DNA of 64,000 bases from Promethearchaeota archaeon (lineage in GTDB: Archaea; Asgardarchaeota; Lokiarchaeia; Sigyniarchaeales; SOKP01). Every line of letters starts with the position of its first letter. Within the stretch, counting starts at the first letter, position 1. The stretch is from the NCBI GenBank assembly GCA_030603385.1, contig JAUVXW010000006.1:1-64000 (forward strand). Reading direction: 5' to 3'. The notes under the pieces are model-generated. The model saw nothing but the letters and a program-made list of their open reading frames with translations. It searched no databases and was not told the DNA's origin. Below, piece by piece: positions 8,891 through 16,996 of this stretch. The translations under genes were made by a program, and so were the position numbers.

Positions 8891-10129
8891 CTAAAAGAGT
8901 GCCAGAGGAACCTCTTTAAGTAGGTCTACAGTGGTATATTGATTTTTACCACCAGTTCTCAAATAATCCATTGCTTTTTCAATTCCTCCAATAGTCAGGT
9001 GGAAAGTGGGAATGATTTTAGAGATTTTCATCTTAGTCCACGACATCCACTCCAATCTGACTGGTTCGGGGTTTAACCAAATCACATTTCTTTTATAATG
9101 CTTAGCAATTTCACTTACATAATAAAGTCCTGGCTTTTTATTGCTTGCATCATCATAAATGGCACCATGGGGGTTGACTATTTCACTACGGTGCATAGTT
9201 TGATCTCCCACAATTATTACACGATAAGAATCGTCGTATTTTTTTAATAAATCCTCAAATTCTATTGCCTGATCTGTATTTCGTTCAGCGTTCTCGTACA
9301 AATAATTATAAATACAATTATGAAAGTAATAGTACTTAAAATCTTTCCAATGAGATATACTATTAGCTGCAGAGAACAAAAGATTTGCTTGGTGAATATA
9401 AATATCCATCGTTCCACCGACGTCCATCAATAGTAAAAGCTTTATATTATTCTTTTTCCTTTTATTGAAGATCAGCTCAATATCACCCCCATTACGCCCC
9501 GTTTCATGAATTGTCTTTGGAAGATCCAACTCATCTTTTTTCCCAATTTCATCTAATCTTCTTAGACGCTTTAACGCGATTTTAATTCGACGTGTATCTA
9601 TGACTAAGTCTTTTCGATAATCTTTAAATATCCTTTTTTGAGCGATTTTTACCGCGGTTTGCATACCATAGCCACCAGCAATTCTAAATCCTTCTATATT
9701 TAGACCTGAGTGCCCGAATTTTGATTGTCCTTGCGTACCAATCCACATATTTCCAAAATTATGTTCTCCATCCTGTTCTCTAAGTAGCTTTCTGAATTGT
9801 TTTTCTAAATCTTCCAAACTTGTATATTCAAAAAATTCTTTTGAAATTCCGGGCATACGGAGGATTGAAATATTTGTTTGGAGCCACTCCCAAATCTCTT
9901 GTTTAATATCTTCAGGAAAATCTAAACCAGCATCTTTAAAATAGTTAGCGAAAGCAATGTCATAGATATCAAAATGATGTTCATTCTTGCAAAGAATTGA
10001 ACGAGAGATATAATAAAAATCAACTGTGTTCTTTATTAAACCCTTATCAAGTGCCTCCAATAAGGTCATAAATTCTGTAATACTAACCGGTAATATTTTC
10101 TTAAGGTAAAAAAAATAGTCTAAAAACAT
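8891..10129 (-). CDS. VWA domain protein (CoxE-like/COG3825), MoxR partner
   Basis: WIGT.G.S.FG, LLLLMDVGGTMD MIDAS-like motif, YYFHNC, IIVGD, IWLNP. Confidence 0.88.
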   Translation of the reverse strand: MFLDYFFYLKKILPVSITEFMTLLEALDKGLIKNTVDFYYISRSILCKNEHHFDIYDIAFANYFKDAGLDFPEDIKQEIWEWLQTNISILRMPGISKEFFEYTSLEDLEKQFRKLLREQDGEHNFGNMWIGTQGQSKFGHSGLNIEGFRIAGGYGMQTAVKIAQKRIFKDYRKDLVIDTRRIKIALKRLRRLDEIGKKDELDLPKTIHETGRNGGDIELIFNKRKKNNIKLLLLMDVGGTMDIYIHQANLLFSAANSISHWKDFKYYYFHNCIYNYLYENAERNTDQAIEFEDLLKKYDDSYRVIIVGDQTMHRSEIVNPHGAIYDDASNKKPGLYYVSEIAKHYKRNVIWLNPEPVRLEWMSWTKMKISKIIPTFHLTIGGIEKAMDYLRTGGKNQYTTVDLLKEVPLALF

Positions 10130-10301
10130 GGAAATTTGAAATTTAAGTTGGGAATTTTAGTTTGTACTTACTTAGTTATAATTTGTTATTTTCTTTTCTA
10201 CTTTTTTTTTTTGAAAAAGATAAAATCATTAGATAAAGCTCCAGATAATAGTGTTTTTTTGATAGTAAAAGTTTAAAGTTTATTCTTAGATTAGAATTAC
10301 A

Positions 10302-10715
10302 CTAATCTTCTTTTAAAGGAACTTTTTTAATATTCTCTAATCTTGTAGAGAGATTTGTCTTTTTAATATATCGAGAAAGATCCCTGTTCAGTAATTCATT
10401 TTCAGTATTCAGTGATTTAGAATTTTGCAACCTTTCTGTAAAACTATTCTTTCCATTATCATTATTAATACTGTTGTCAATAGGAAGTTCTGTGATAAAT
10501 GATTTTGAAAGATCCTTAATTATTCGGTCTTTAACAGGATCCGGTTTACCGTATCTATGTCCTGTAAAGTTACACTCAATAGATTTTTCGTTATTTAATT
10601 CATAATAAGAACATCTACGGCAATATAAATCCTGCAAATATAGAAGCGTCTTAGGGCATAATATTAAATCTATCCTAATTTTGTTGGGTCTAATTGGTAT
10701 CTTATTAATTTTCAT
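10302..10715 (-). CDS. Hypothetical protein with Cys cluster
   Basis: 137-aa ORF; CP...YCRRC...C possible Zn site. Confidence 0.6.
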   Translation of the reverse strand: MKINKIPIRPNKIRIDLILCPKTLLYLQDLYCRRCSYYELNNEKSIECNFTGHRYGKPDPVKDRIIKDLSKSFITELPIDNSINNDNGKNSFTERLQNSKSLNTENELLNRDLSRYIKKTNLSTRLENIKKVPLKED

Positions 10716-10897
10716 CTTATTTCTCTCTTAAAGAACCCATGATTACAAAGACTTGAAGAATTTGTCTCAAATCAAAAGATAAATACAATAAATTAATGAA
10801 AATTGAGAATTATAAATCTATTTATACATAATTTCGTATTGAAATTTCATTATAGCACAACAAAAAAGTTAAAAATTACATTTGCAAGTAATAGCTT

Positions 10898-11077
10898 ATG
10901 TATCTAATAATTTTTCCAGAGGGCCAAAGAGCACATTTTAGCAATCAAACCGAGTTTTGTAAGAGTGTGAGAGATTACCTTAAAAAGAAAAAGGGCAAGT
11001 GGGTTAAGATAAAGTGTTACTATACCACTTCGAAAAACGTAAATGAAGCGTTCCAACAATTATATGGGATAAAGTAG
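10898..11077 (+). CDS. Small hypothetical protein (59 aa, not in ORF track)
   Basis: ATG..TAG: MYLIIFPEGQRAHFSNQTEFCKSVRDYLKKKKGKWVKIKCYYTTSKNVNEAFQQLYGIK; fills an intergenic gap. Confidence 0.45.
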   Translation: MYLIIFPEGQRAHFSNQTEFCKSVRDYLKKKKGKWVKIKCYYTTSKNVNEAFQQLYGIK

Positions 11078-11100
11078 GTAGTTTAGAGTTCGAATTGAAT

Positions 11101-11769
11101 TTATTCTCTTACTATTCCAATACCCTTCTTTCTTAAATTTTGGATAACAAAATCGTATTTAATTAAGGGCTCATATTCTAAATCAGGAATTCCTAAACTA
11201 TTTATCTGTTCTTCCGTATAAATGTTAAACAGGATAGCAGCTCTATACTGAATACCATATTTTTTAAGCAACTTTAATGCTTTTAATTGATTATTAAAAA
11301 GTTTCCCGTCAACTCCAGTGTTTTGCTCAAAAGTCTGCTCATCGACTCCTTTCAGAGAAACTCTCACATATAAATTGCTAAATTTGCTTAAATCCTTAAT
11401 ATAGACTTCATCTAATAAGATTCCATTGGTTTCAAGAATAAATAGAATATTTTCTGGAATACAACTCAAGAGCTTAAGTAAGTGGTCTTTTCCAATGGTT
11501 GGTTCTCCTCCACTTACTCGTACTAGTGGTTGGTTCATAGTGAGAAGTCTTTCACTCACACTCTTAGGGGAATAATATTTGCCAAATTTTTGAGGATGCC
11601 ACACTTTTTTCTGAGCCCAACAATACACACATCGAAGATTACAGCCCAAACAGTCAGCAGTCGCACATCCACCATAGAATTGAGTTTTACGGAATCTATA
11701 ATACTTTTTAGAATCGTTTTTACACACTTGATTCTTAACAGTCTGAGCTAACTTAAAAGGATCGACCAT
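11101..11769 (-). CDS. Radical SAM protein
   Basis: CNLRCVYC, RVSGGEPT, LETNG, VRVSLKG. Confidence 0.9.
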   Translation of the reverse strand: MVDPFKLAQTVKNQVCKNDSKKYYRFRKTQFYGGCATADCLGCNLRCVYCWAQKKVWHPQKFGKYYSPKSVSERLLTMNQPLVRVSGGEPTIGKDHLLKLLSCIPENILFILETNGILLDEVYIKDLSKFSNLYVRVSLKGVDEQTFEQNTGVDGKLFNNQLKALKLLKKYGIQYRAAILFNIYTEEQINSLGIPDLEYEPLIKYDFVIQNLRKKGIGIVRE

Positions 11770-11933
11770 ATTCTATTATAAGAAAGGAATTGCACTTTTA
11801 AAATCTTGACTTTAAAAGATTATAAATATAGTATTTTTGTCGGGATCAACCCTACCTTATTTTCTGGTTAATTCCAACCTTTAAAACTGAAAGAGACTTG
11901 TTTTTTATATAATAAAAGGGAAATTGTATAGGT

Positions 11934-12071
11934 ATGGGAGAAAAGAAGAATCTCGATCTCTCGTTGATGAACTTTATTGAGCCAGTTCAAGCTAGTCAAG
12001 ACTACTTTATCAATAAAGAAATTACCAAGTTAGTAAAAATTGAACTAAAAGGATTTCCCTATTTACCATAA
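11934..12071 (+). CDS. Possible 45-aa protein (not in ORF track)
   Basis: MGEKKNLDLSLMNFIEPVQASQDYFINKEITKLVKIELKGFPYLP; open frame only. Confidence 0.3.
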   Translation: MGEKKNLDLSLMNFIEPVQASQDYFINKEITKLVKIELKGFPYLP

Positions 12072-12088
12072 AAAGTATTTAAAATTCC

Positions 12089-12292
12089 CTACTTATTTTG
12101 GATTTGATTGATTTTCTTCTTCATTTGATTTTTTAAAAATTTAGAGACTGTTATATATTTAGAGGGAATACCTTTTTCATAGTTTTCCTTTTCTTTTTTT
12201 AAACATATGGGGCATACAGCTAATTTCAAATCATTTCTAAATTCTTTGCCACATTCTAAGCAGAGATAAAGTGTTTCAGACTCCATCGTCAA
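12089..12292 (-). CDS. Small Zn-ribbon protein
   Basis: CLECG...CPIC; AAGGAG SD upstream. Confidence 0.7.
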   Translation of the reverse strand: MTMESETLYLCLECGKEFRNDLKLAVCPICLKKEKENYEKGIPSKYITVSKFLKNQMKKKINQIQNK

Positions 12293-12510
12293 ACATACTC
12301 CTTTTCAATGCTTTATTACGGTTTTTTATATAATCATGAAAATAATAAAAATAAATTATTAAAATATAGGGAGAGCAGAAATTTTTGAGAATTGGAATGA
12401 AAATAAATATATTATTCAAAATAGAATGGGGGCGAGACCTATGGGTTATTAAAAGGGAAGGGAGTCGATAATTTCAAGAAAGATGTTTTAAAATAATGTA
12501 AAGGAAATAG

Positions 12511-12795
12511 TCAGGATTTTAATAGATTGTCAAGCTCAATGAGTTTATCTAATACCATTTTACCTTTTTTAGTTAATCTGATAATTTTCTTATTATTTTT
12601 CCGTTCAATAGCTATCAATCCCCTTTCTATTAATTTGGATTTTATTCTGAGAAAGGAGTTATAGTAGCTGAATTCTTTTAATTTCTGGTAAAAGTTGTGG
12701 GTTTCTGTTCTATTATTTTTACATTGGGAAAGTACCCGAAAAGTGTCCCAAAAACCCCTTTTTTTAACAAATTTGAATAACTCCTCTAAAGTCAG
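12511..12795 (-). CDS. Winged helix-turn-helix protein (94 aa), probable CTG start; missed by ORF track
   Basis: Open frame (M)TLEELFKFVKKRGFWDTFRVL...SYYNSFLRIKSKLIERGLI...IIRLTKKGKMVLDKL with the wHTH 'L...GLI...LT.KG' wing; no ATG/GTG/TTG at the 5' end. Confidence 0.8.
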   Translation of the reverse strand: MTLEELFKFVKKRGFWDTFRVLSQCKNNRTETHNFYQKLKEFSYYNSFLRIKSKLIERGLIAIERKNNKKIIRLTKKGKMVLDKLIELDNLLKS

Positions 12796-12948
12796 ATTAA
12801 TTCCCTTAACTATTATTCGAGATATATAATAGTAAAGAAGCGTTTGGATTAAAATATTGGGTGTAGAAATTTAGTTATTCACCTTAGTTTTTTTCTTTAT
12901 AAATACTCATCAATATTCCAACAATGATATACCATTTAAGGTGATAAA

Positions 12949-13254
12949 ATGAGTCTTGATGAGCTGATTAGTATTGAACATGTAGAGTTTGAAAGGTCGA
13001 GAATTCAAGAAACTTATTCAGTAAATAACCTTCTCCTATCAAGGTTGTTTGAAGAATTGATAACAGAAGTAAAAAAAGACATTTTGCCTGTTTTAGATAT
13101 GTATATCTTGCTACAAACATTACAATCTGTTCCGTTTACTGATGAGGTAAAAGGTATTGAGATTATTGAAATCCTTAGTAAATGGATGAGTGAGGAGCTT
13201 TACGGAAAAGAAGTAAAATGCTCTGAAATTGCAAAAAAGCGAGGAAAAAAATGA
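12949..13254 (+). CDS. Hypothetical protein, possibly the N-terminus of the downstream nuclease ORF (frameshift)
   Basis: AGGTGA SD + ATG; overlaps the next ORF across A6/A7 runs. Confidence 0.7.
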   Translation: MSLDELISIEHVEFERSRIQETYSVNNLLLSRLFEELITEVKKDILPVLDMYILLQTLQSVPFTDEVKGIEIIEILSKWMSEELYGKEVKCSEIAKKRGKK

Positions 13255-16090
13255 GTCTAAACTAGAAAAATCATCTGAATCTCAAAACACTAGTAAAAAA
13301 GAATTAAATAAAATAGAAATTACTGCTTCAAAATCACAAAAACAAAGTAAATCAAGTGAAGATTCGGATAAACAGAGCAAGAGTGAAATAGTCTCAAAGA
13401 ATAGACTAGAATTGAGAGAAAAATATAGACAAGAAACAGGGAAGAGACCAATTTACAATAAAAAGGAAACTAAAGGATTTCTTTCTTGGTTAGAAAAAAG
13501 AAAAAAAATAGTTATAAAAAAGATACAAGTAAAAAAGGAAGAAAAAATTGGAGAAGCAAAAGAACAGTGGCAAATTCTTCTAGAAAAATGGATATGGGAA
13601 GCTAATGAATCTAAAATCTCAAAAGAGATCAAAGAAGAGCTTATAGATATTATTAGGAAATATCGAAGGTTTAGAGAAATATATCTAAAGTTGATTAAAT
13701 TACTCGAAAGAAGGAATCTAACTGAGGAAGAAAATGAAGTTATTGAAAAATTGTTTAAAAAACTTGAACAAATAAATCAAATTCAAGCAAATATATTTAC
13801 AAATCTCAGAGCCTTTCACTCGATATATAATCAATATCATATATGGGACATGAATCGAATTCTAAAAGAGCGTGAAAAATTCATAAACTACCTTATACAG
13901 AAGTTACAGAATCTAAAAATTAATGAAAGAACTCCGCAAGGTGTTGAAAAAAGTTGGAAGGAGGTTTTAAAAGAAAATTTACATAGAATAACAACCTTAA
14001 GCTTCAAGCAAAAATCACAAATAGTTAAGATCATCCAAAAAAATAAAACAAATGAAGAAGACAAGTCGGAGCTTGTCTCGATATTAAAAAAACTTCCAAT
14101 AGAAGATTTGATTTCTTTATTAGGAAAAGATTTTGAAAAACACTCAAAAAATTATATAAGATGGGGTTGGGACTTTTATGAATATATCAAGAAAGACATG
14201 CTAATTTCCTACATAAACAAAAATGAATCTAATTATTTTTTAGGAAAGAATATCTCTGTTGAAACAGCCAATAAAATCATTAGGAAATGTCTTGAATTTG
14301 ACATAGAAATAAAAAACTTATTTGATTATAAAGGAAGAACTTCTAAACTAAAGCTAGTATGTAAAAAATGTGGTCATGGAAGTGAAGAAGGAAAAGAATG
14401 GTATAAAACAGGAAATAACATTCTCAAAGTAACTTGGAAAGGATGTCCAAAATGTCAAAGTAGAAATAGACTTATTAAATACTTCAACCTTTTGAAGACT
14501 AGAGCAAGCCAAAAAGGACTTGAAGTTATTTCTGATTTTAATGATTATCAAAATAGTCGATCAAAAATCAAATTATCTTGTCTTAATCCTGATTGTTTAT
14601 TTGGTCAAAATGGTGATTGGTCCAGAGTTGCTAGCTCCATAATGGAATCAAGTTTTCACGGGTGTCCTAAATGCTATAAACCTCAAATAGGTACTTTAAA
14701 AAGCAAGCAGTATTACTATAAGGAATTGAAGACCTTAGCTACATTAAAAGGCGGAAAAATTATAAATGAGAGATATACGAATAGTAGAAAAAAATATGAA
14801 TTTGAATGTAAGAATGGTCATACTTTTAAAAGATATCCTTATGAGATAAAAAAAGGTTATTGGTGTAAACAATGCTTTAAGAATAAGAAATTAAAAGAAA
14901 TGCAAAAAATTGCTAGAAAAAAAAATGGAAAGTTAATATCAACTGAATATGTTAATGCTCTTACTCCCTTAATTTGGGAGTGTAATAAATGCTTTTTAGA
15001 AGGAAGACCTTTTAGATGGTCAGCGCGACCTGCTGATATTAAAAAAGGTAATTGGTGTCCGAAATGCGCAGGTAAATTTAAATATTCTATTGAAGATATG
15101 AAGAAATTTGCTACTTCGAAAAAAGGCTATTGTCTCTCAAGTGAATATAAAAATATGAAATCTCCTTTATGGTGGAAGTGTGGTGAATGTGGAAATGAAT
15201 GGTTATCTACTCCTACAAGTGTTATTCATCAAGGAACTTGGTGTCCAAGATGTGGGCGTTTAGGCATCAGTGAAAGAGTTTGTCGAAAATTTTTTGAAAT
15301 ACTTTTTAATAAGGAATTTCCGACCACCACTAGTTTAAAATGGTTAGTGAATGAAAATGGTTATAAAATGCATTTAGATGGCTACGATGATGAATTAAGA
15401 ATAGCCTTTGAATATAATGGGATTCAACATTACATATACAATAAACATTTTTATAAAACAAAAGAAGAATTTGAACAAAGAATAAGGGATGATAGACGGA
15501 AAAAAGAATTATGTAATCAAAACAACATTGTATTAATTATTATTCCGTATTATGTATCTTTTGATGAAATGGAAGATTTCATAAGGAAAGAATGTAAAAT
15601 AAGAGGAATTCATATTCCTGAAACAGAGGATAAAATTGATTGGAATGATTTTAATATAGCTACTCCTAATAAATTAACTGAAATGCAAAATGCTGCAAAG
15701 GTGGTAGGAATTAAGAGATATGGATATCCTGGTAAATGTTTATCAAATAATTATTTAGGGAGATTTACACCTTTAAGATGGGAATGTGGGAATCCCTCTT
15801 GTAGACATCAATGGTGGGAGACTCCAAATAATGTCATTAATCATCAAAGATGGTGTCCACGCTGTGCAGGAAAAAGATATACTATTAAAGATATGCATAT
15901 ATTGGCATCAGAAAAATTAAATGGAGGAAAATGTTTATCTGAAAAATATAAAGGTGCAAAGGTTCATTTGGCATGGGAGTGTGGTATATGTGGGAATATA
16001 TGGTCTGCAAGTCCAGATAATATACGTAGAGGTAAAGGATGTCCTAAGTGGAGAGAACATAAATCTAAAAAAAAGTTAAAAAGAATATAA
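13229..16090 (+). CDS. Large protein with multiple treble-clef-like Zn-ribbon repeats and a PD-(D/E)xK (Vsr/DUF559-like) nuclease domain
   Basis: About seven W/L.C..C...W...WCP.C modules; SERVCR..FE...LDGY...IAFEYNGIQHY...D..K...C...I.LI.IPY nuclease signature. Confidence 0.8.
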   Translation: MQKSEEKNESKLEKSSESQNTSKKELNKIEITASKSQKQSKSSEDSDKQSKSEIVSKNRLELREKYRQETGKRPIYNKKETKGFLSWLEKRKKIVIKKIQVKKEEKIGEAKEQWQILLEKWIWEANESKISKEIKEELIDIIRKYRRFREIYLKLIKLLERRNLTEEENEVIEKLFKKLEQINQIQANIFTNLRAFHSIYNQYHIWDMNRILKEREKFINYLIQKLQNLKINERTPQGVEKSWKEVLKENLHRITTLSFKQKSQIVKIIQKNKTNEEDKSELVSILKKLPIEDLISLLGKDFEKHSKNYIRWGWDFYEYIKKDMLISYINKNESNYFLGKNISVETANKIIRKCLEFDIEIKNLFDYKGRTSKLKLVCKKCGHGSEEGKEWYKTGNNILKVTWKGCPKCQSRNRLIKYFNLLKTRASQKGLEVISDFNDYQNSRSKIKLSCLNPDCLFGQNGDWSRVASSIMESSFHGCPKCYKPQIGTLKSKQYYYKELKTLATLKGGKIINERYTNSRKKYEFECKNGHTFKRYPYEIKKGYWCKQCFKNKKLKEMQKIARKKNGKLISTEYVNALTPLIWECNKCFLEGRPFRWSARPADIKKGNWCPKCAGKFKYSIEDMKKFATSKKGYCLSSEYKNMKSPLWWKCGECGNEWLSTPTSVIHQGTWCPRCGRLGISERVCRKFFEILFNKEFPTTTSLKWLVNENGYKMHLDGYDDELRIAFEYNGIQHYIYNKHFYKTKEEFEQRIRDDRRKKELCNQNNIVLIIIPYYVSFDEMEDFIRKECKIRGIHIPETEDKIDWNDFNIATPNKLTEMQNAAKVVGIKRYGYPGKCLSNNYLGRFTPLRWECGNPSCRHQWWETPNNVINHQRWCPRCAGKRYTIKDMHILASEKLNGGKCLSEKYKGAKVHLAWECGICGNIWSASPDNIRRGKGCPKWREHKSKKKLKRI

Positions 16091-16112
16091 TGTCTTTAAT
16101 AAAATTCATCAA

Positions 16113-16996
16113 TTATGTTGGGAACTTTAGTTTATCCAAGGCAATCTCAAAGTCTTTCTCTTTTTTTATTAAAACTCCAAGAAATGGAATATTTGTGCGT
16201 AACTCCTCAATAGTAATTCCACTTTTCAATAACACACCAATCCAATCAAGGAGTTCAGAAGTAGAAGGTAATTTTCTCATTTTCGTTATAGCCCTTAATG
16301 CATAGAAATGGTTAAGACATTGTTCCAATAAATTCACTTTTAAATTCGGATAATGAAGGTTACAGATATCTGCCATAAATTCTCTAGAAGGAAACTCAAT
16401 CCAATGGAATACGCATCTTCTTAAAAAGGCGTCAGGAAGTTCTTTTTCATTATTAGAAGTAATGATGACTATTGGTCTGGTTTTGGTCCTAACAAATTCT
16501 TTTGTTTCTTTGATATAAAACTCCATAACATCCAATTCTTGGAGCAAATCATTCGGAAATTCTATTTACAGTAATGCTAATTATTATTTAGCATTATATC
16601 TGCTTTATCGATCTCATCGATAAGAAGAACGACCTGCTCATCAGAATCAAAAGCTTCTCCTAATGGACCAAAAGTAATATAATCATTAATATTATCAACA
16701 TCGCGATCCTCACAGCCAAATCTACTATCATTCAATCTTTGAACGGTGTCGTACATGTAGCATCCGTCGATGCCTTCAGTTGTACTCTTAATATTCCAAA
16801 TTATCAATCTTTTGCCTAAGTTTAACGATATCGCATGGGCTAGCATAGTTTTTCCTGTTCCAGGCTCTCCTTTCACTAATAAAGGGCGTCCTAAAGCAAT
16901 AGACACATTAACAATATTTCTAAGCTGTGGGTCTGCTAAATACTTAACAGTTTCTGTTTTTACGTCTCCTTTAAATTTATTAAAAGTAGCATCCAT
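16113..16996 (-). CDS. MoxR-family AAA+ ATPase, split into two exons (16996-16598, 16565-16113; 283 aa after splicing)
   Basis: Walker A GEPGTGKT, YDTVQRLNDS, Walker B LLIDEIDKAD in the 5' part; EFPNDLLQELD, ITSNNEKELPDAFLRRC, PSTSELLDW in the 3' part; joined in frame by removing 32 nt. Confidence 0.92.
16566..16597 (-). other. Candidate bulge-helix-bulge-type (EndA-spliced) 32-nt intron in moxR mRNA
   Basis: mRNA: GCAG-AU^A-UAAUGCUAA-AUAAUAA-UUAGCAUUA-CUGU-AA^A-UAG; 9-bp stem, 4-bp central helix GCAG/CUGU, 3-nt bulge; canonical cuts restore GAU AUA GAA UUU. Confidence 0.78.

What the first reader, a model, noticed from the sequence alone, without database searches (positions are those of the whole stretch)
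16566..16597. Candidate bulge-helix-bulge intron inside a protein-coding (moxR AAA+) gene of an Asgard-like archaeon
Seen: the two ORFs 16577-16996 and 16113-16547 are the halves of one MoxR ATPase, broken just after Walker B by a 32-nt insert that adds a stop and a frameshift. The minus-strand RNA reads GAUAAA GCAG AUA UAAUGCUAA AUAAUAA UUAGCAUUA CUGU AAA UAGAAUUUCCG. It has a perfect 9-bp stem with a 7-nt loop, a 3-nt bulge (AUA), a 4-bp central helix in which exon GCAG pairs with insert CUGU, and an unpaired AAA on the other strand. Known: archaeal splicing endonuclease (EndA) cuts after the second nucleotide of each bulge. Applying that rule removes exactly 32 nt and gives GCA GAU AUA GAA UUU CCG = DKADIEFPNDLLQELD, the conserved motif, in a 283-aa protein with no other lesions. 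The exon-exon outer helix is weak (one A-U pair, then an internal loop, then GAGAU/AUUUC), so this is a relaxed BHB/bulge-helix-loop form. The only well-established archaeal mRNA intron of this type I know is in crenarchaeal cbf5. Inference: this is mRNA splicing by tRNA-splicing machinery in a relative of eukaryotes. It parallels HAC1/XBP1 non-spliceosomal splicing and could act as a regulatory switch on a chaperone ATPase.
Basis: partly seen in the sequence, partly recalled or inferred. Interest (0 to 1): 0.95.

Follow-up and report, generated by a model that had tools for sequence, protein, structure and literature searches.

The report
tRNA-type mini-intron in Asgard moxR
A 32-base insert that breaks an ATPase gene of a Lokiarchaeon has the shape of a tRNA intron and is kept, with compensating mutations and intact exons, in many related genomes. 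The mRNA is therefore almost certainly cut and rejoined by the tRNA-splicing enzymes, which the papers I could search confirm inside only one other archaeal coding sequence (cbf5).

Summary
Window 16566-16597 (minus strand) is a 32-nt insert that splits a 283-aa MoxR-like AAA+ gene just after Walker B.

- **Distribution.** The insert is single-copy in this 3.9-Mb genome. Inserts at the same place occur in 19 loci (15 distinct sequences). They come from two genera of the same Lokiarchaeial family and from another class of the phylum. They fall into three forms with unrelated sequences.
- **Geometry.** All share one layout: a 4-nt exon/intron helix, two 3-nt bulges, and a 9-bp hairpin. Cutting after the second base of each bulge restores DKADIEFPNDLL in every case.
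- **Selection.** Exons are intact (dN/dS 0.04-0.09). The stems covary. One exon synonymous site covaries with its intron partner.
- **Machinery.** The genome encodes an alpha/beta EndA pair with the broad-specificity loop lysine, and RtcB.
- **Same rule elsewhere.** The genome's rnhB and uvrB carry 30-nt inserts that obey the same rule.

Best reading (0.85): a relaxed bulge-helix-bulge mRNA intron removed by the tRNA-splicing machinery. The idea of a regulatory switch has no support. The patchy distribution fits a tolerated, possibly recombination-spread element. This scan had already noted the class in this genome and this intron type in another genome.

The parts
16598..16996 (-). moxR exon 1 (codons 1-133): Walker A GEPGTGKT, Walker B LLIDEIDKAD
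   Evidence: ORF list. Pfam AAA/AAA_5 hits. Aligned to intact orthologues.
16566..16597 (-). 32-nt BHB-type intron (type A1). Contains an in-frame TAG and shifts the frame.
   Evidence: Single copy in the genome.
16113..16565 (-). moxR exon 2 (150 codons plus stop), starting IEFPNDLL
   Evidence: dN/dS 0.04-0.09 among intron-bearing alleles. The first 13 codons vary almost only synonymously.
16600..16603 (-). Exon strand of the central helix H (GCAG), which pairs with 16568-16571
   Evidence: The A-U pair changes to C-G in type A2 through a synonymous GCA>GCC change.
16597..16599 (-). 5' bulge AUA. Predicted cut between 16598 and 16597.
   Evidence: Geometry. The cut rule was checked on this genome's own tRNA introns.
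16572..16596 (-). Intron hairpin h': 9-bp stem (16588-16596 with 16572-16580) and 7-nt loop (16581-16587)
   Evidence: Six of 9 pairs show changes on both sides across alleles.
16568..16571 (-). Intron strand of the central helix H (CUGU)
   Evidence: U>C in G077 and L135 turns the G.U pair into G-C.
16565..16567 (-). 3' bulge AAA. Predicted cut between 16566 and 16565.
   Evidence: The middle base varies (A/G/U) among alleles.
16605..16623 (-). Local exon-1 hairpin (8 bp) just 5' of helix H. It depends on two ATC codons that are typical of intron-bearing alleles.
   Evidence: Not present in allele L136, so not required for the intron.

Best explanation
The 32 nt at 16566-16597 are an archaeal bulge-helix-bulge intron of the relaxed (HBh'/BHL-like) kind, sitting inside the coding sequence of a MoxR-like AAA+ ATPase of a Lokiarchaeial (Asgard) archaeon.

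Proposed steps in the pre-mRNA:
1. The last exon-1 bases GCAG pair with CUGU near the intron's 3' end.
2. This 4-bp helix is flanked by two 3-nt bulges on opposite strands.
3. A 9-bp intron hairpin closes the motif on the inner side.
4. The heteromeric splicing endonuclease EndA cuts after the second base of each bulge.
5. RtcB joins the exons.
6. The spliced mRNA encodes the complete 283-aa protein with the conserved DKADIEFPNDLL junction.

Shown here: the geometry, its conservation and covariation, selection on both exons, and the presence of the enzymes. Inferred: the cleavage and ligation themselves.

The intron is most likely a tolerated, selfish or neutral element rather than a regulator. 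Its patchy distribution, and the hitch-hiking of nearby exon sites, suggest spread or retention through recombination between species.
For: 1. **Recurrence.** Inserts at the same codon occur in G000, G020 and G077, that is 3 of 44 genus species with the gene. They also occur in G279 and G280 (a second genus) and in metagenome, ENA, NCBI and Logan contigs. A form 6 nt further 3' occurs in L138, L139 and G195, which belongs to another class of the phylum. In total: 19 loci and 15 distinct intron sequences of 31-32 nt.
2. **One geometry.** All 12 sequences examined decompose as 4-nt helix, 3-nt bulge, hairpin closed at its ends, 4-nt helix, 3-nt bulge. The inner three helix pairs are always Watson-Crick. 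The three sequences found later fit the same scheme by inspection. The three forms A1, A2 and B have unrelated stem sequences.
3. **One cut rule.** Cutting after the second bulge base restores DKADIEFPNDLL in every allele. In L136 there is no terminal repeat, so the only ORF-restoring boundaries are exactly the predicted cuts. At least two tRNA introns of this genome, Ser(CGA) and Lys(UUU), show a complete 4-bp helix under this rule at the canonical 37/38 position; two more do at a shifted register.
4. **Covariation**.
   - 90.4% of cells are paired.
   - 7 of 13 pairs show changes on both sides.
   - The score is 0.459 against 0.197 +/- 0.031 in shuffles (0 of 500 reach it).
   - Slid controls give <= 0.129.
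   - One exon synonymous change (GCA>GCC) is matched by U>G in the intron.
5. **Selection.**
   - Every allele with full coverage is intact after removal.
   - dN/dS is 0.04-0.09 where dS is defined; dS is often saturated.
   - Eleven of the first 13 exon-2 codons vary, with one amino-acid change in one allele.
   - Intron identity is 0.82 against 0.55 at synonymous third positions.
6. **Machinery.**
   - Two EndA paralogues are present.
   - One aligns end to end with the A. pernix subunit 3P1Z_B. This includes the Crenarchaea-specific-loop K44/R46, read here as INKPR. PMC3241643 shows K44 is needed for activity.
   - The second paralogue has no His at the expected catalytic position, judged by eye from the sequence and not from an alignment. 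Its PDB hits are weaker.
   - RtcB is present.
   - PMC5829648 reports (alpha-beta)2 EndA with this loop in Asgard archaea.
7. **Same rule in unrelated genes of this genome.** 30-nt inserts in rnhB (C17) and uvrB (C4) have perfect 4-bp helices and 3-nt bulges. Removal restores GIDEAGRGP and YYDYYQPEAY.
Against: - No RNA evidence.
- The outer exon-exon helix is weak, and the outermost pair of the central helix is G.U or a mismatch in most alleles. The motif is therefore non-canonical.
- Single-sequence folding does not prefer the BHB pairing.
- A de novo genome-wide test could not separate signal from background. It asked whether the BHB cut rule fuses ORFs more often than decoy offsets do.
- Much of the covariation comes from the contrast between two clades (A1 against A2). 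That amounts to few independent events.
Confidence: 0.85

Rival explanations
1. A recent hairpin or MITE-like insertion simply inactivated the gene, which is now a pseudogene.
For: - The insert carries an in-frame stop and a frameshift.
- In G000 it is flanked by an ATA repeat that could be a target duplication.
- In G000 the moxR-VWA operon is also disrupted by about 6 kb of inserted DNA.
Against: - Single copy in the genome, even when 6 mismatches are allowed.
- L136 has no terminal repeat, and most other alleles have only AT.
- Nineteen loci across at least three genera keep both exons intact, with dN/dS 0.04-0.09 at saturated dS.
- The intron is more conserved than synonymous sites, and its stems covary.
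Confidence: 0.03
2. The gene is truly split. The 139-aa Walker A/B half and a roughly 137-144-aa C-terminal half are translated separately and assemble. The insert supplies the stop and the restart.
For: - Gene callers predict two ORFs.
- TTG and ATG codons lie 7 and 14 codons into exon 2.
- AAA+ modules can in principle be reconstituted from parts. This is general knowledge and was not tested here.
Against: - The 13 codons between the 3' boundary and the first ATG encode IEFPNDLLQELDV. Across alleles they vary almost only synonymously, so they are translated in the exon-2 frame.
- In G000 and G020 a stop codon lies immediately upstream in that frame, and the first codon is ATA or ATT. Separate initiation there is therefore unlikely.
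- This model does not explain the conserved helix-bulge geometry or the exon-intron covariation.
Confidence: 0.05
3. The ribosome gets across the insert by recoding: either a 32-nt translational bypass of the T4 gene 60 kind or programmed frameshifting.
For: - In G000 the codon before the insert's body (ATA) recurs as the first exon-2 codon. This could serve as take-off and landing codons.
- A hairpin follows the take-off site.
Against: - Matching take-off and landing codons are absent in G020, G077, L130, L135 and L136: ATA against ATT, or TTA against ATA.
- No stop codon directly follows the take-off codon.
- Simple frameshifting is excluded in G000 and G020. Stops lie in the exon-2 frame up to the last intron codon, and a TAG lies in frame 0 (sequence).
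- The form B inserts sit 6 nt further on yet have the same BHB geometry.
Confidence: 0.03
4. The intron is spliced as in the best explanation, but its purpose is regulatory. It would be an unconventional-splicing switch like HAC1/XBP1 that controls how much active MoxR is made.
For: - The intron sequence, loop included, is more conserved than neutral sites.
- Repressing endA in Haloferax lowers expression of an mRNA with a BHB intron in its 5' UTR (PMC7714728).
Against: - 41 of 44 species of the genus, 5 of 6 of genus g58 and 78 of 80 metagenome contigs lack the intron yet encode the same protein.
- Three unrelated intron sequences occupy the site.
- No sensor or regulated nuclease is linked to it.
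- Similar inserts sit in housekeeping genes such as rnhB and uvrB.
Confidence: 0.08

Closest known systems
BHB intron in the cbf5 (pseudouridine synthase) pre-mRNA of Crenarchaeota (Watanabe 2002; Yokobori 2009, PMC2738675)
   Same: - A short intron inside a protein-coding sequence.
- A relaxed BHB motif cut by a heteromeric EndA with broad specificity.
- A patchy phylogenetic distribution read as gain and loss.
   Different: - A different phylum (Asgard/Lokiarchaeia) and a different gene (a MoxR AAA+ ATPase).
- The site is occupied by three unrelated intron sequences, one of them shifted by 6 nt.
- It is accompanied by similar inserts in other genes of the same genome.
- Splicing is not yet shown experimentally here, whereas it was shown for cbf5.
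Archaeal tRNA BHB introns, including the many non-canonical ones of Asgard archaea (PMC5829648; PMC11291895; bioRxiv 10.64898/2026.10.13.758758)
   Same: The same motif (4-bp helix, two 3-nt bulges), the same cut positions, a similar size range, and the same enzymes (EndA, RtcB).
   Different: - The host RNA is an mRNA. Exon pairing must therefore coexist with codon constraints, and an exon synonymous site covaries with the intron.
- No tRNA body is available to help recognition.
BHB intron in the 5' UTR of Haloferax volcanii HVO_1309 (PMC7714728)
   Same: An mRNA substrate of the archaeal splicing endonuclease.
   Different: That intron lies in an untranslated region. The present one interrupts the reading frame, so the protein depends on exact excision.
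HAC1/XBP1 unconventional splicing in eukaryotes
   Same: Non-spliceosomal, protein-enzyme splicing of an mRNA at stem-loop sites, followed by a tRNA-type ligase (RtcB in metazoa).
   Different: - The nuclease there is Ire1, not the tRNA endonuclease.
- That splicing is stress-regulated and changes the C-terminus of a transcription factor.
- No regulation is indicated here.
Translational bypass of T4 gene 60
   Same: A short, stop-containing, hairpin-forming gap in a coding sequence that does not end the protein.
   Different: Bypass needs matched take-off and landing codons and a stop right after take-off. Most alleles here do not meet these requirements.

Membership tests
Archaeal bulge-helix-bulge (BHB) intron | [quoted passage not shown] | tested here: met
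   The bulges and spacing hold in all 12 sequences examined. The three sequences found later fit by inspection. The inner three pairs are always Watson-Crick. The outermost pair is G.U or G-C in form A1 and a mismatch in forms A2 and B.
Archaeal bulge-helix-bulge (BHB) intron | Flanking helices on both sides (h from exon-exon pairing, h' within the intron) in the strict hBHBh' form | tested here: not met
   h' is a 9-bp hairpin. h is only 1-2 A-U pairs in forms A1 and A2, and 3-4 bp after a U.U mismatch in form B (read from the sequences). This is therefore the relaxed HBh'/BHL form, not the strict one.
Archaeal bulge-helix-bulge (BHB) intron | Cuts at symmetric positions in the bulges give the exact functional exon junction | tested here: met
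   The rule restores the ORF and the DKADIEFPNDLL motif in all alleles. The boundaries are unambiguous in L136. At least two tRNA introns of this genome fit the rule at the canonical 37/38 position.
Archaeal bulge-helix-bulge (BHB) intron | Helices supported by compensatory change | tested here: met
   7 of 13 pairs changed on both sides, covariation 0.459 against 0.197 in shuffles, slid controls <= 0.129. Few independent events underlie this.
Archaeal bulge-helix-bulge (BHB) intron | Host encodes a splicing endonuclease able to cut relaxed motifs, and an RNA ligase | tested here: met
   Two EndA paralogues. The alpha-like one carries the K44/R46-type loop. RtcB is present.
Archaeal bulge-helix-bulge (BHB) intron | Excision and ligation observed in RNA (spliced junction, circular intron) or in vitro | not testable with these tools
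MoxR-like AAA+ ATPase | Single AAA+ module with Walker A and Walker B, about 280-330 aa, usually next to a VWA-domain gene | tested here: met
   - Pfam AAA/AAA_5 hits.
- Sources name near-identical proteins as MoxR family or MoxR-like ATPase.
- A VWA_CoxE gene directly follows moxR in intron-less relatives and lies at window 8891-10129.
- No NCBIfam model reaches its cut-off.
MITE or hairpin transposable element | Multiple copies in the genome and a constant target-site duplication | tested here: not met
   One copy with up to 6 mismatches allowed. The terminal repeats are ATA, AT or none, depending on the allele.
Programmed translational bypass (T4 gene 60 type) | Identical take-off and landing codons, with a stop codon right after take-off | tested here: not met
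   The codons match only in some alleles, such as G000. No stop follows the take-off codon.
Known structured RNA families (Rfam 15) | A match to a curated covariance model | tested here: not met
   No match at E <= 1 in window 16300-16900.

The most novel reading that the evidence does not exclude
Lokiarchaeia may carry a genome-wide population of roughly 30-nt BHB micro-introns in protein-coding genes (moxR, rnhB and uvrB here; further genes in notes of this scan). These introns would be gained repeatedly at the same sites and move between species by recombination.

At moxR, three unrelated intron sequences occupy one 6-nt stretch. Intron-bearing alleles share the flanking synonymous sites against the gene tree.

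In several genomes the intron co-occurs with a large zinc-finger ORF lying tail to tail with moxR. That ORF might act like a free-standing homing enzyme. If so, this would be a protein-spliced, mobile intron system in the closest prokaryotic relatives of eukaryotes.
Probability: 0.3. Interest if true: 0.92.

Novelty: new member of a known kind. Interest (0 to 1): 0.8.

Why it matters
- **Rarity.** BHB introns inside coding sequences are textbook rarities. A 2020 paper still lists cbf5 as the only case besides one 5' UTR intron (PMC7714728). I found no report for Asgard archaea in the searchable library.
- **Relevance to eukaryote origins.** A conserved, structurally covarying example now exists in Lokiarchaeia, alongside similar inserts in other genes of the same genome. 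This suggests that the closest known relatives of eukaryotes routinely splice mRNAs with the tRNA machinery.
- **Annotation.** Such genes are currently called as two fragments or as pseudogenes. LCGC14_1218310 from Loki's Castle is one such fragment.
- **Enzymology.** The finding bears on how relaxed the specificity of EndA is in vivo.
- **Intron evolution.** It bears on debates about how introns can settle in protein genes before a spliceosome exists.
- **Testability.** It gives a concrete 90-nt substrate for experiments.

Tried and rejected
2. **De novo census.** I scanned the genome for BHB geometry (251,020 structural candidates) and asked whether the true cut rule fuses long ORFs more often than decoy offsets of +/-1 or 2 nt.
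   - It did not, at any threshold. Removing candidates with start codons near the junction made no difference.
   - Hairpins at ordinary gene junctions swamp the signal.
   - The moxR intron is recovered in the list, but most other hits look spurious.
3. **Repeat family.** Fuzzy searches for the insert and its parts found only the one copy.
4. **Genome-collection search.** The search for related loci on genome contigs returned mostly bacterial MoxR genes and did not name the genus.
5. **Truncated ORFs that are not introns.** L221 has a GAA>TAA nonsense codon. L140, from a GC-rich lineage, has a deletion of about 14 nt.
6. **Rfam.** No match.
7. **Neighbour ORF953 as a nuclease.** Pfam shows only treble-clef zinc fingers and a CapR domain. 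The suspected nuclease-like stretch has no Pfam or PDB match.
8. **Exon synonymous states shared by intron alleles (ATC..ATC, CCG, TTG) as part of the splice structure.** Rejected as a requirement, because L136 lacks them all.

Full report
**What is there.**
- On the minus strand the window reads through Walker B (LLIDEIDKAD) and then meets 32 nt (16597 down to 16566).
- These 32 nt contain an in-frame TAG and shift the frame. The sequence then continues with IEFPNDLL.
- Removing exactly these 32 nt gives a 283-aa ORF.
- The N-terminal half hits Pfam AAA and AAA_5. Public sources name near-identical proteins MoxR family or MoxR-like ATPase, from 'Candidatus Lokiarchaeota' and 'Promethearchaeota' archaea.
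- The genome (3.89 Mb, 30.8% GC, 58 contigs) belongs to a genus with 54 species representatives. That genus lies in an order that also holds complete genomes of 4.4 and 6.0 Mb.
- One related contig carries a gelsolin-domain gene next to moxR.
- An Asgard origin is therefore well supported, although the tools do not give the genus name.

**Not a repeat, not an artefact.** The insert is single-copy in the genome even when 6 mismatches are allowed. It is present in independent assemblies from JGI, ENA, NCBI and Logan, so it is real DNA.

**Recurrence.**
- Within the genus, 41 of 44 species with the gene have an uninterrupted ORF. G020 and G077 carry a 32-nt insert at the same codon.
- I searched 5.8 billion proteins with the truncated N-terminal ORF. 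This found many ORFs of 135-140 aa that end just after DKAD(I) with varied read-through tails. One of them is LCGC14_1218310 from the Loki's Castle metagenome.
- Their DNA, together with a phylum-wide genome search, gave 19 intron-bearing loci with 15 distinct intron sequences.
- They fall into three forms:

| Form | Length | Position | Where found |
|---|---|---|---|
| A1 | 32 nt | after GAT of DKAD | this window and relatives |
| A2 | 31 nt | same site, entirely different stem sequence | includes genus g29 |
| B | 31 nt | 6 nt further 3' | includes G195, another class of the phylum |

- Two other truncated ORFs turned out to be an ordinary nonsense mutation and a deletion. The method therefore does not simply return introns.

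**Structure.**
- All 12 sequences examined decompose identically. The three found later fit the same scheme by inspection.
- The decomposition, 5' to 3':
  1. four exon bases
  2. a 3-nt bulge made of two exon bases and one intron base
  3. a hairpin whose stem (9 bp, or 9-10 bp with one bulged base) closes at its first and last base, with a loop of 6-7 nt in most forms
  4. four intron bases that pair with the four exon bases
  5. a second 3-nt bulge made of two intron bases and one exon base
- The inner three pairs of the central helix are Watson-Crick in all. The outermost pair is G.U, G-C or a mismatch.
- On the 12 same-site sequences:
  - 90.4% of cells are paired, even though four sequences are out of register by a bulged base.
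  - 7 of 13 pairs have changes on both sides.
  - The covariation score is 0.459, against 0.197 +/- 0.031 in shuffles (0 of 500 reach it) and at most 0.129 for slid partners.
- The most telling change is in the exon-intron helix. Form A2 has the synonymous Ala codon GCC instead of GCA, and its intron partner is G instead of U.
- L132 has a G-C to A-U swap in the stem. L135 and L136 have an A-U to G-C swap. G077 and L135 turn the G.U pair into G-C.
- Loops and the middle base of the 3' bulge vary freely.
- The exon-exon outer helix is weak in forms A1 and A2, and is 3-4 bp in form B. The motif is therefore of the relaxed kind.

**The cut rule.**
- Cutting after the second base of each bulge gives DKADIEFPNDLL in all alleles.
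- Most alleles have 2-5 nt of terminal repeat, which leaves the boundary ambiguous. L136 has none, and there the only ORF-restoring boundaries are the predicted ones.
- As an internal control, I applied the same decomposition to tRNA introns called in this genome. It gives a complete 4-bp helix at the canonical 37/38 position for at least Ser(CGA) and Lys(UUU). Two further tRNAs give one at a shifted register.

**The gene is alive.**
- All alleles with full coverage are intact after removal, with exon 2 exactly 150 codons long in the same-site forms.
- Among intron-bearing alleles dS is often saturated. Where it is defined, dN/dS is 0.04-0.09 for exon 2 and similar for exon 1.
- Eleven of the first 13 exon-2 codons vary, and they vary almost only synonymously. 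This stretch lies upstream of any plausible restart codon, which argues against separate translation of a C-terminal half.
- The intron itself is more conserved than synonymous third positions (0.82 against 0.55).
- Frameshifting is excluded in G000 and G020 by stops in both frames. Bypass lacks matched codons in most alleles.

**Machinery.**
- The genome encodes two EndA-family proteins of about 200 aa.
- One aligns over its whole length with chain B of the Aeropyrum pernix enzyme (3P1Z). The alignment includes the Crenarchaea-specific loop with Lys44 and Arg46. Hirata et al. showed that this loop confers broad specificity and that Lys44 is needed for activity (PMC3241643).
- The other paralogue has no His at the expected catalytic position. 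I judged this by eye from the sequence, not from an alignment. Its PDB hits are weaker. This fits a structural subunit.
- RtcB is present.
- The literature reports (alpha-beta)2 EndA with this loop in Asgard archaea (PMC5829648) and very intron-rich tRNA genes (PMC11291895; bioRxiv 10.64898/2026.10.13.758758).
- Consistent with that, ARAGORN finds only 22 tRNAs here, 9 of them with introns.

**Other genes.**
- Following leads from notes of this scan, I located 30-nt inserts in rnhB (C17) and uvrB (C4).
- Both have perfect 4-bp helices and 3-nt bulges.
- The same rule restores GIDEAGRGP and YYDYYQPEAY.
- My own de novo census failed for lack of specificity, so I cannot give a genome-wide number.

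**Evolution (inference).**
- In the gene tree the three genus carriers are not monophyletic. G000 is sister to the intron-less G002 and G073 with 100% support.
- Within +/-36 nt of the junction, however, the carriers are each other's nearest neighbours. They differ at 5-8 of 72 sites there, against 20-22% over the whole gene (binomial P 0.002-0.017).
- L136 lacks these shared states, so they are not needed for splicing.
- Hitch-hiking with the intron, through recombination between species or an old polymorphism, is the simplest reading.
- L141 is a mosaic whose breakpoint lies 74 nt past the intron.
- Three unrelated intron sequences within 6 nt suggest either repeated gain at a favoured site or rapid turnover.

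**Context in the window.**
- In intron-less relatives moxR is followed directly by a VWA_CoxE gene.
- In G000 that gene lies at 8891-10129. About 6 kb, including a 953-aa zinc-finger ORF (13229-16090), sits between the two.
- Homologues of that ORF lie tail to tail with moxR in G020 and L132/L133, with a 24-aa remnant in G077. None lies within 1.5 kb of the 41 intron-less genus loci. Several other carriers lack it, and I could not show that it is a nuclease.

**Novelty.**
- The searchable literature names cbf5 of Crenarchaeota as the only BHB intron inside an archaeal coding sequence, plus one 5' UTR intron in Haloferax (PMC2738675; PMC7714728).
- Searches combining Asgard or Lokiarchaeota with BHB and mRNA terms found only work on tRNA, rRNA and EndA. 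Papers in subscription journals could not be checked.
- The kind of element is known. This is a new member in a new phylum and a new gene.
- This scan had already noted the class elsewhere in this genome, and the G077-type intron in another genome.

**Verdict.** The splicing interpretation is supported at about 0.85 by comparative evidence, with no RNA proof. The regulatory role is unsupported. Interest is high.

Noticed in passing
window 8891-16113: In intron-less relatives moxR is followed directly by its VWA_CoxE partner. In this genome that gene lies at 8891-10129. About 6 kb sits between the two: a radical-SAM gene at 11101-11769 and a 953-aa ORF at 13229-16090 with DUF4379 zinc fingers and a CapR domain.
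   Followed up: partly
window 13229-16090; L020:797-2233; L132:2155-2814; L032:1993-2064: Homologues of the 953-aa zinc-finger ORF (72-77% aa) lie tail to tail with moxR only in some intron-bearing alleles: G020, L132/L133, and a remnant in G077. None lies within 1.5 kb of the 41 intron-less genus loci. Carriers L130, L134, L135, G279 and G280 lack it. Its nuclease activity is not shown.
   Followed up: partly
L141 (Ga0114930_10010126), moxR: This is a mosaic relative to the window. There are 5 differences in the first 473 nt of the spliced gene, up to 74 nt past the intron, and then 66 differences in the remaining 377 nt. It is either a recombinant allele or a chimeric assembly.
   Followed up: partly
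G069 (L037) moxR junction: This intron-less allele carries the exon-1 flank typical of intron-bearing alleles (both ATC codons and GCA). It may be a precise intron loss.
   Followed up: no
G000 whole genome: ARAGORN finds only 22 tRNA genes in a 94%-complete genome, 9 of them with an intron. Most tRNA genes are probably hidden by non-canonical or multiple introns.
   Followed up: no
G000 C17:18135 (+) and C4:251906 (+), 0-based starts: 30-nt inserts in rnhB and uvrB have perfect 4-bp helices (UGGU/ACCA and CCAG/CUGG) and 3-nt bulges. Removal restores the catalytic DEAGRGP motif and the YYDYYQPEAY hairpin motif.
   Followed up: partly
G000 C55:17368 (+), 0-based: A further 30-nt candidate has helix TGGG/CCCA, and its removal fuses ORFs of 94 and 161 codons. 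It was not checked against relatives.
   Followed up: no
L221 and L140: Other breaks occur at the same place in moxR homologues: a GAA>TAA nonsense codon (L221), and a deletion of about 14 nt in a GC-rich lineage (L140). Neither has BHB geometry.
   Followed up: yes
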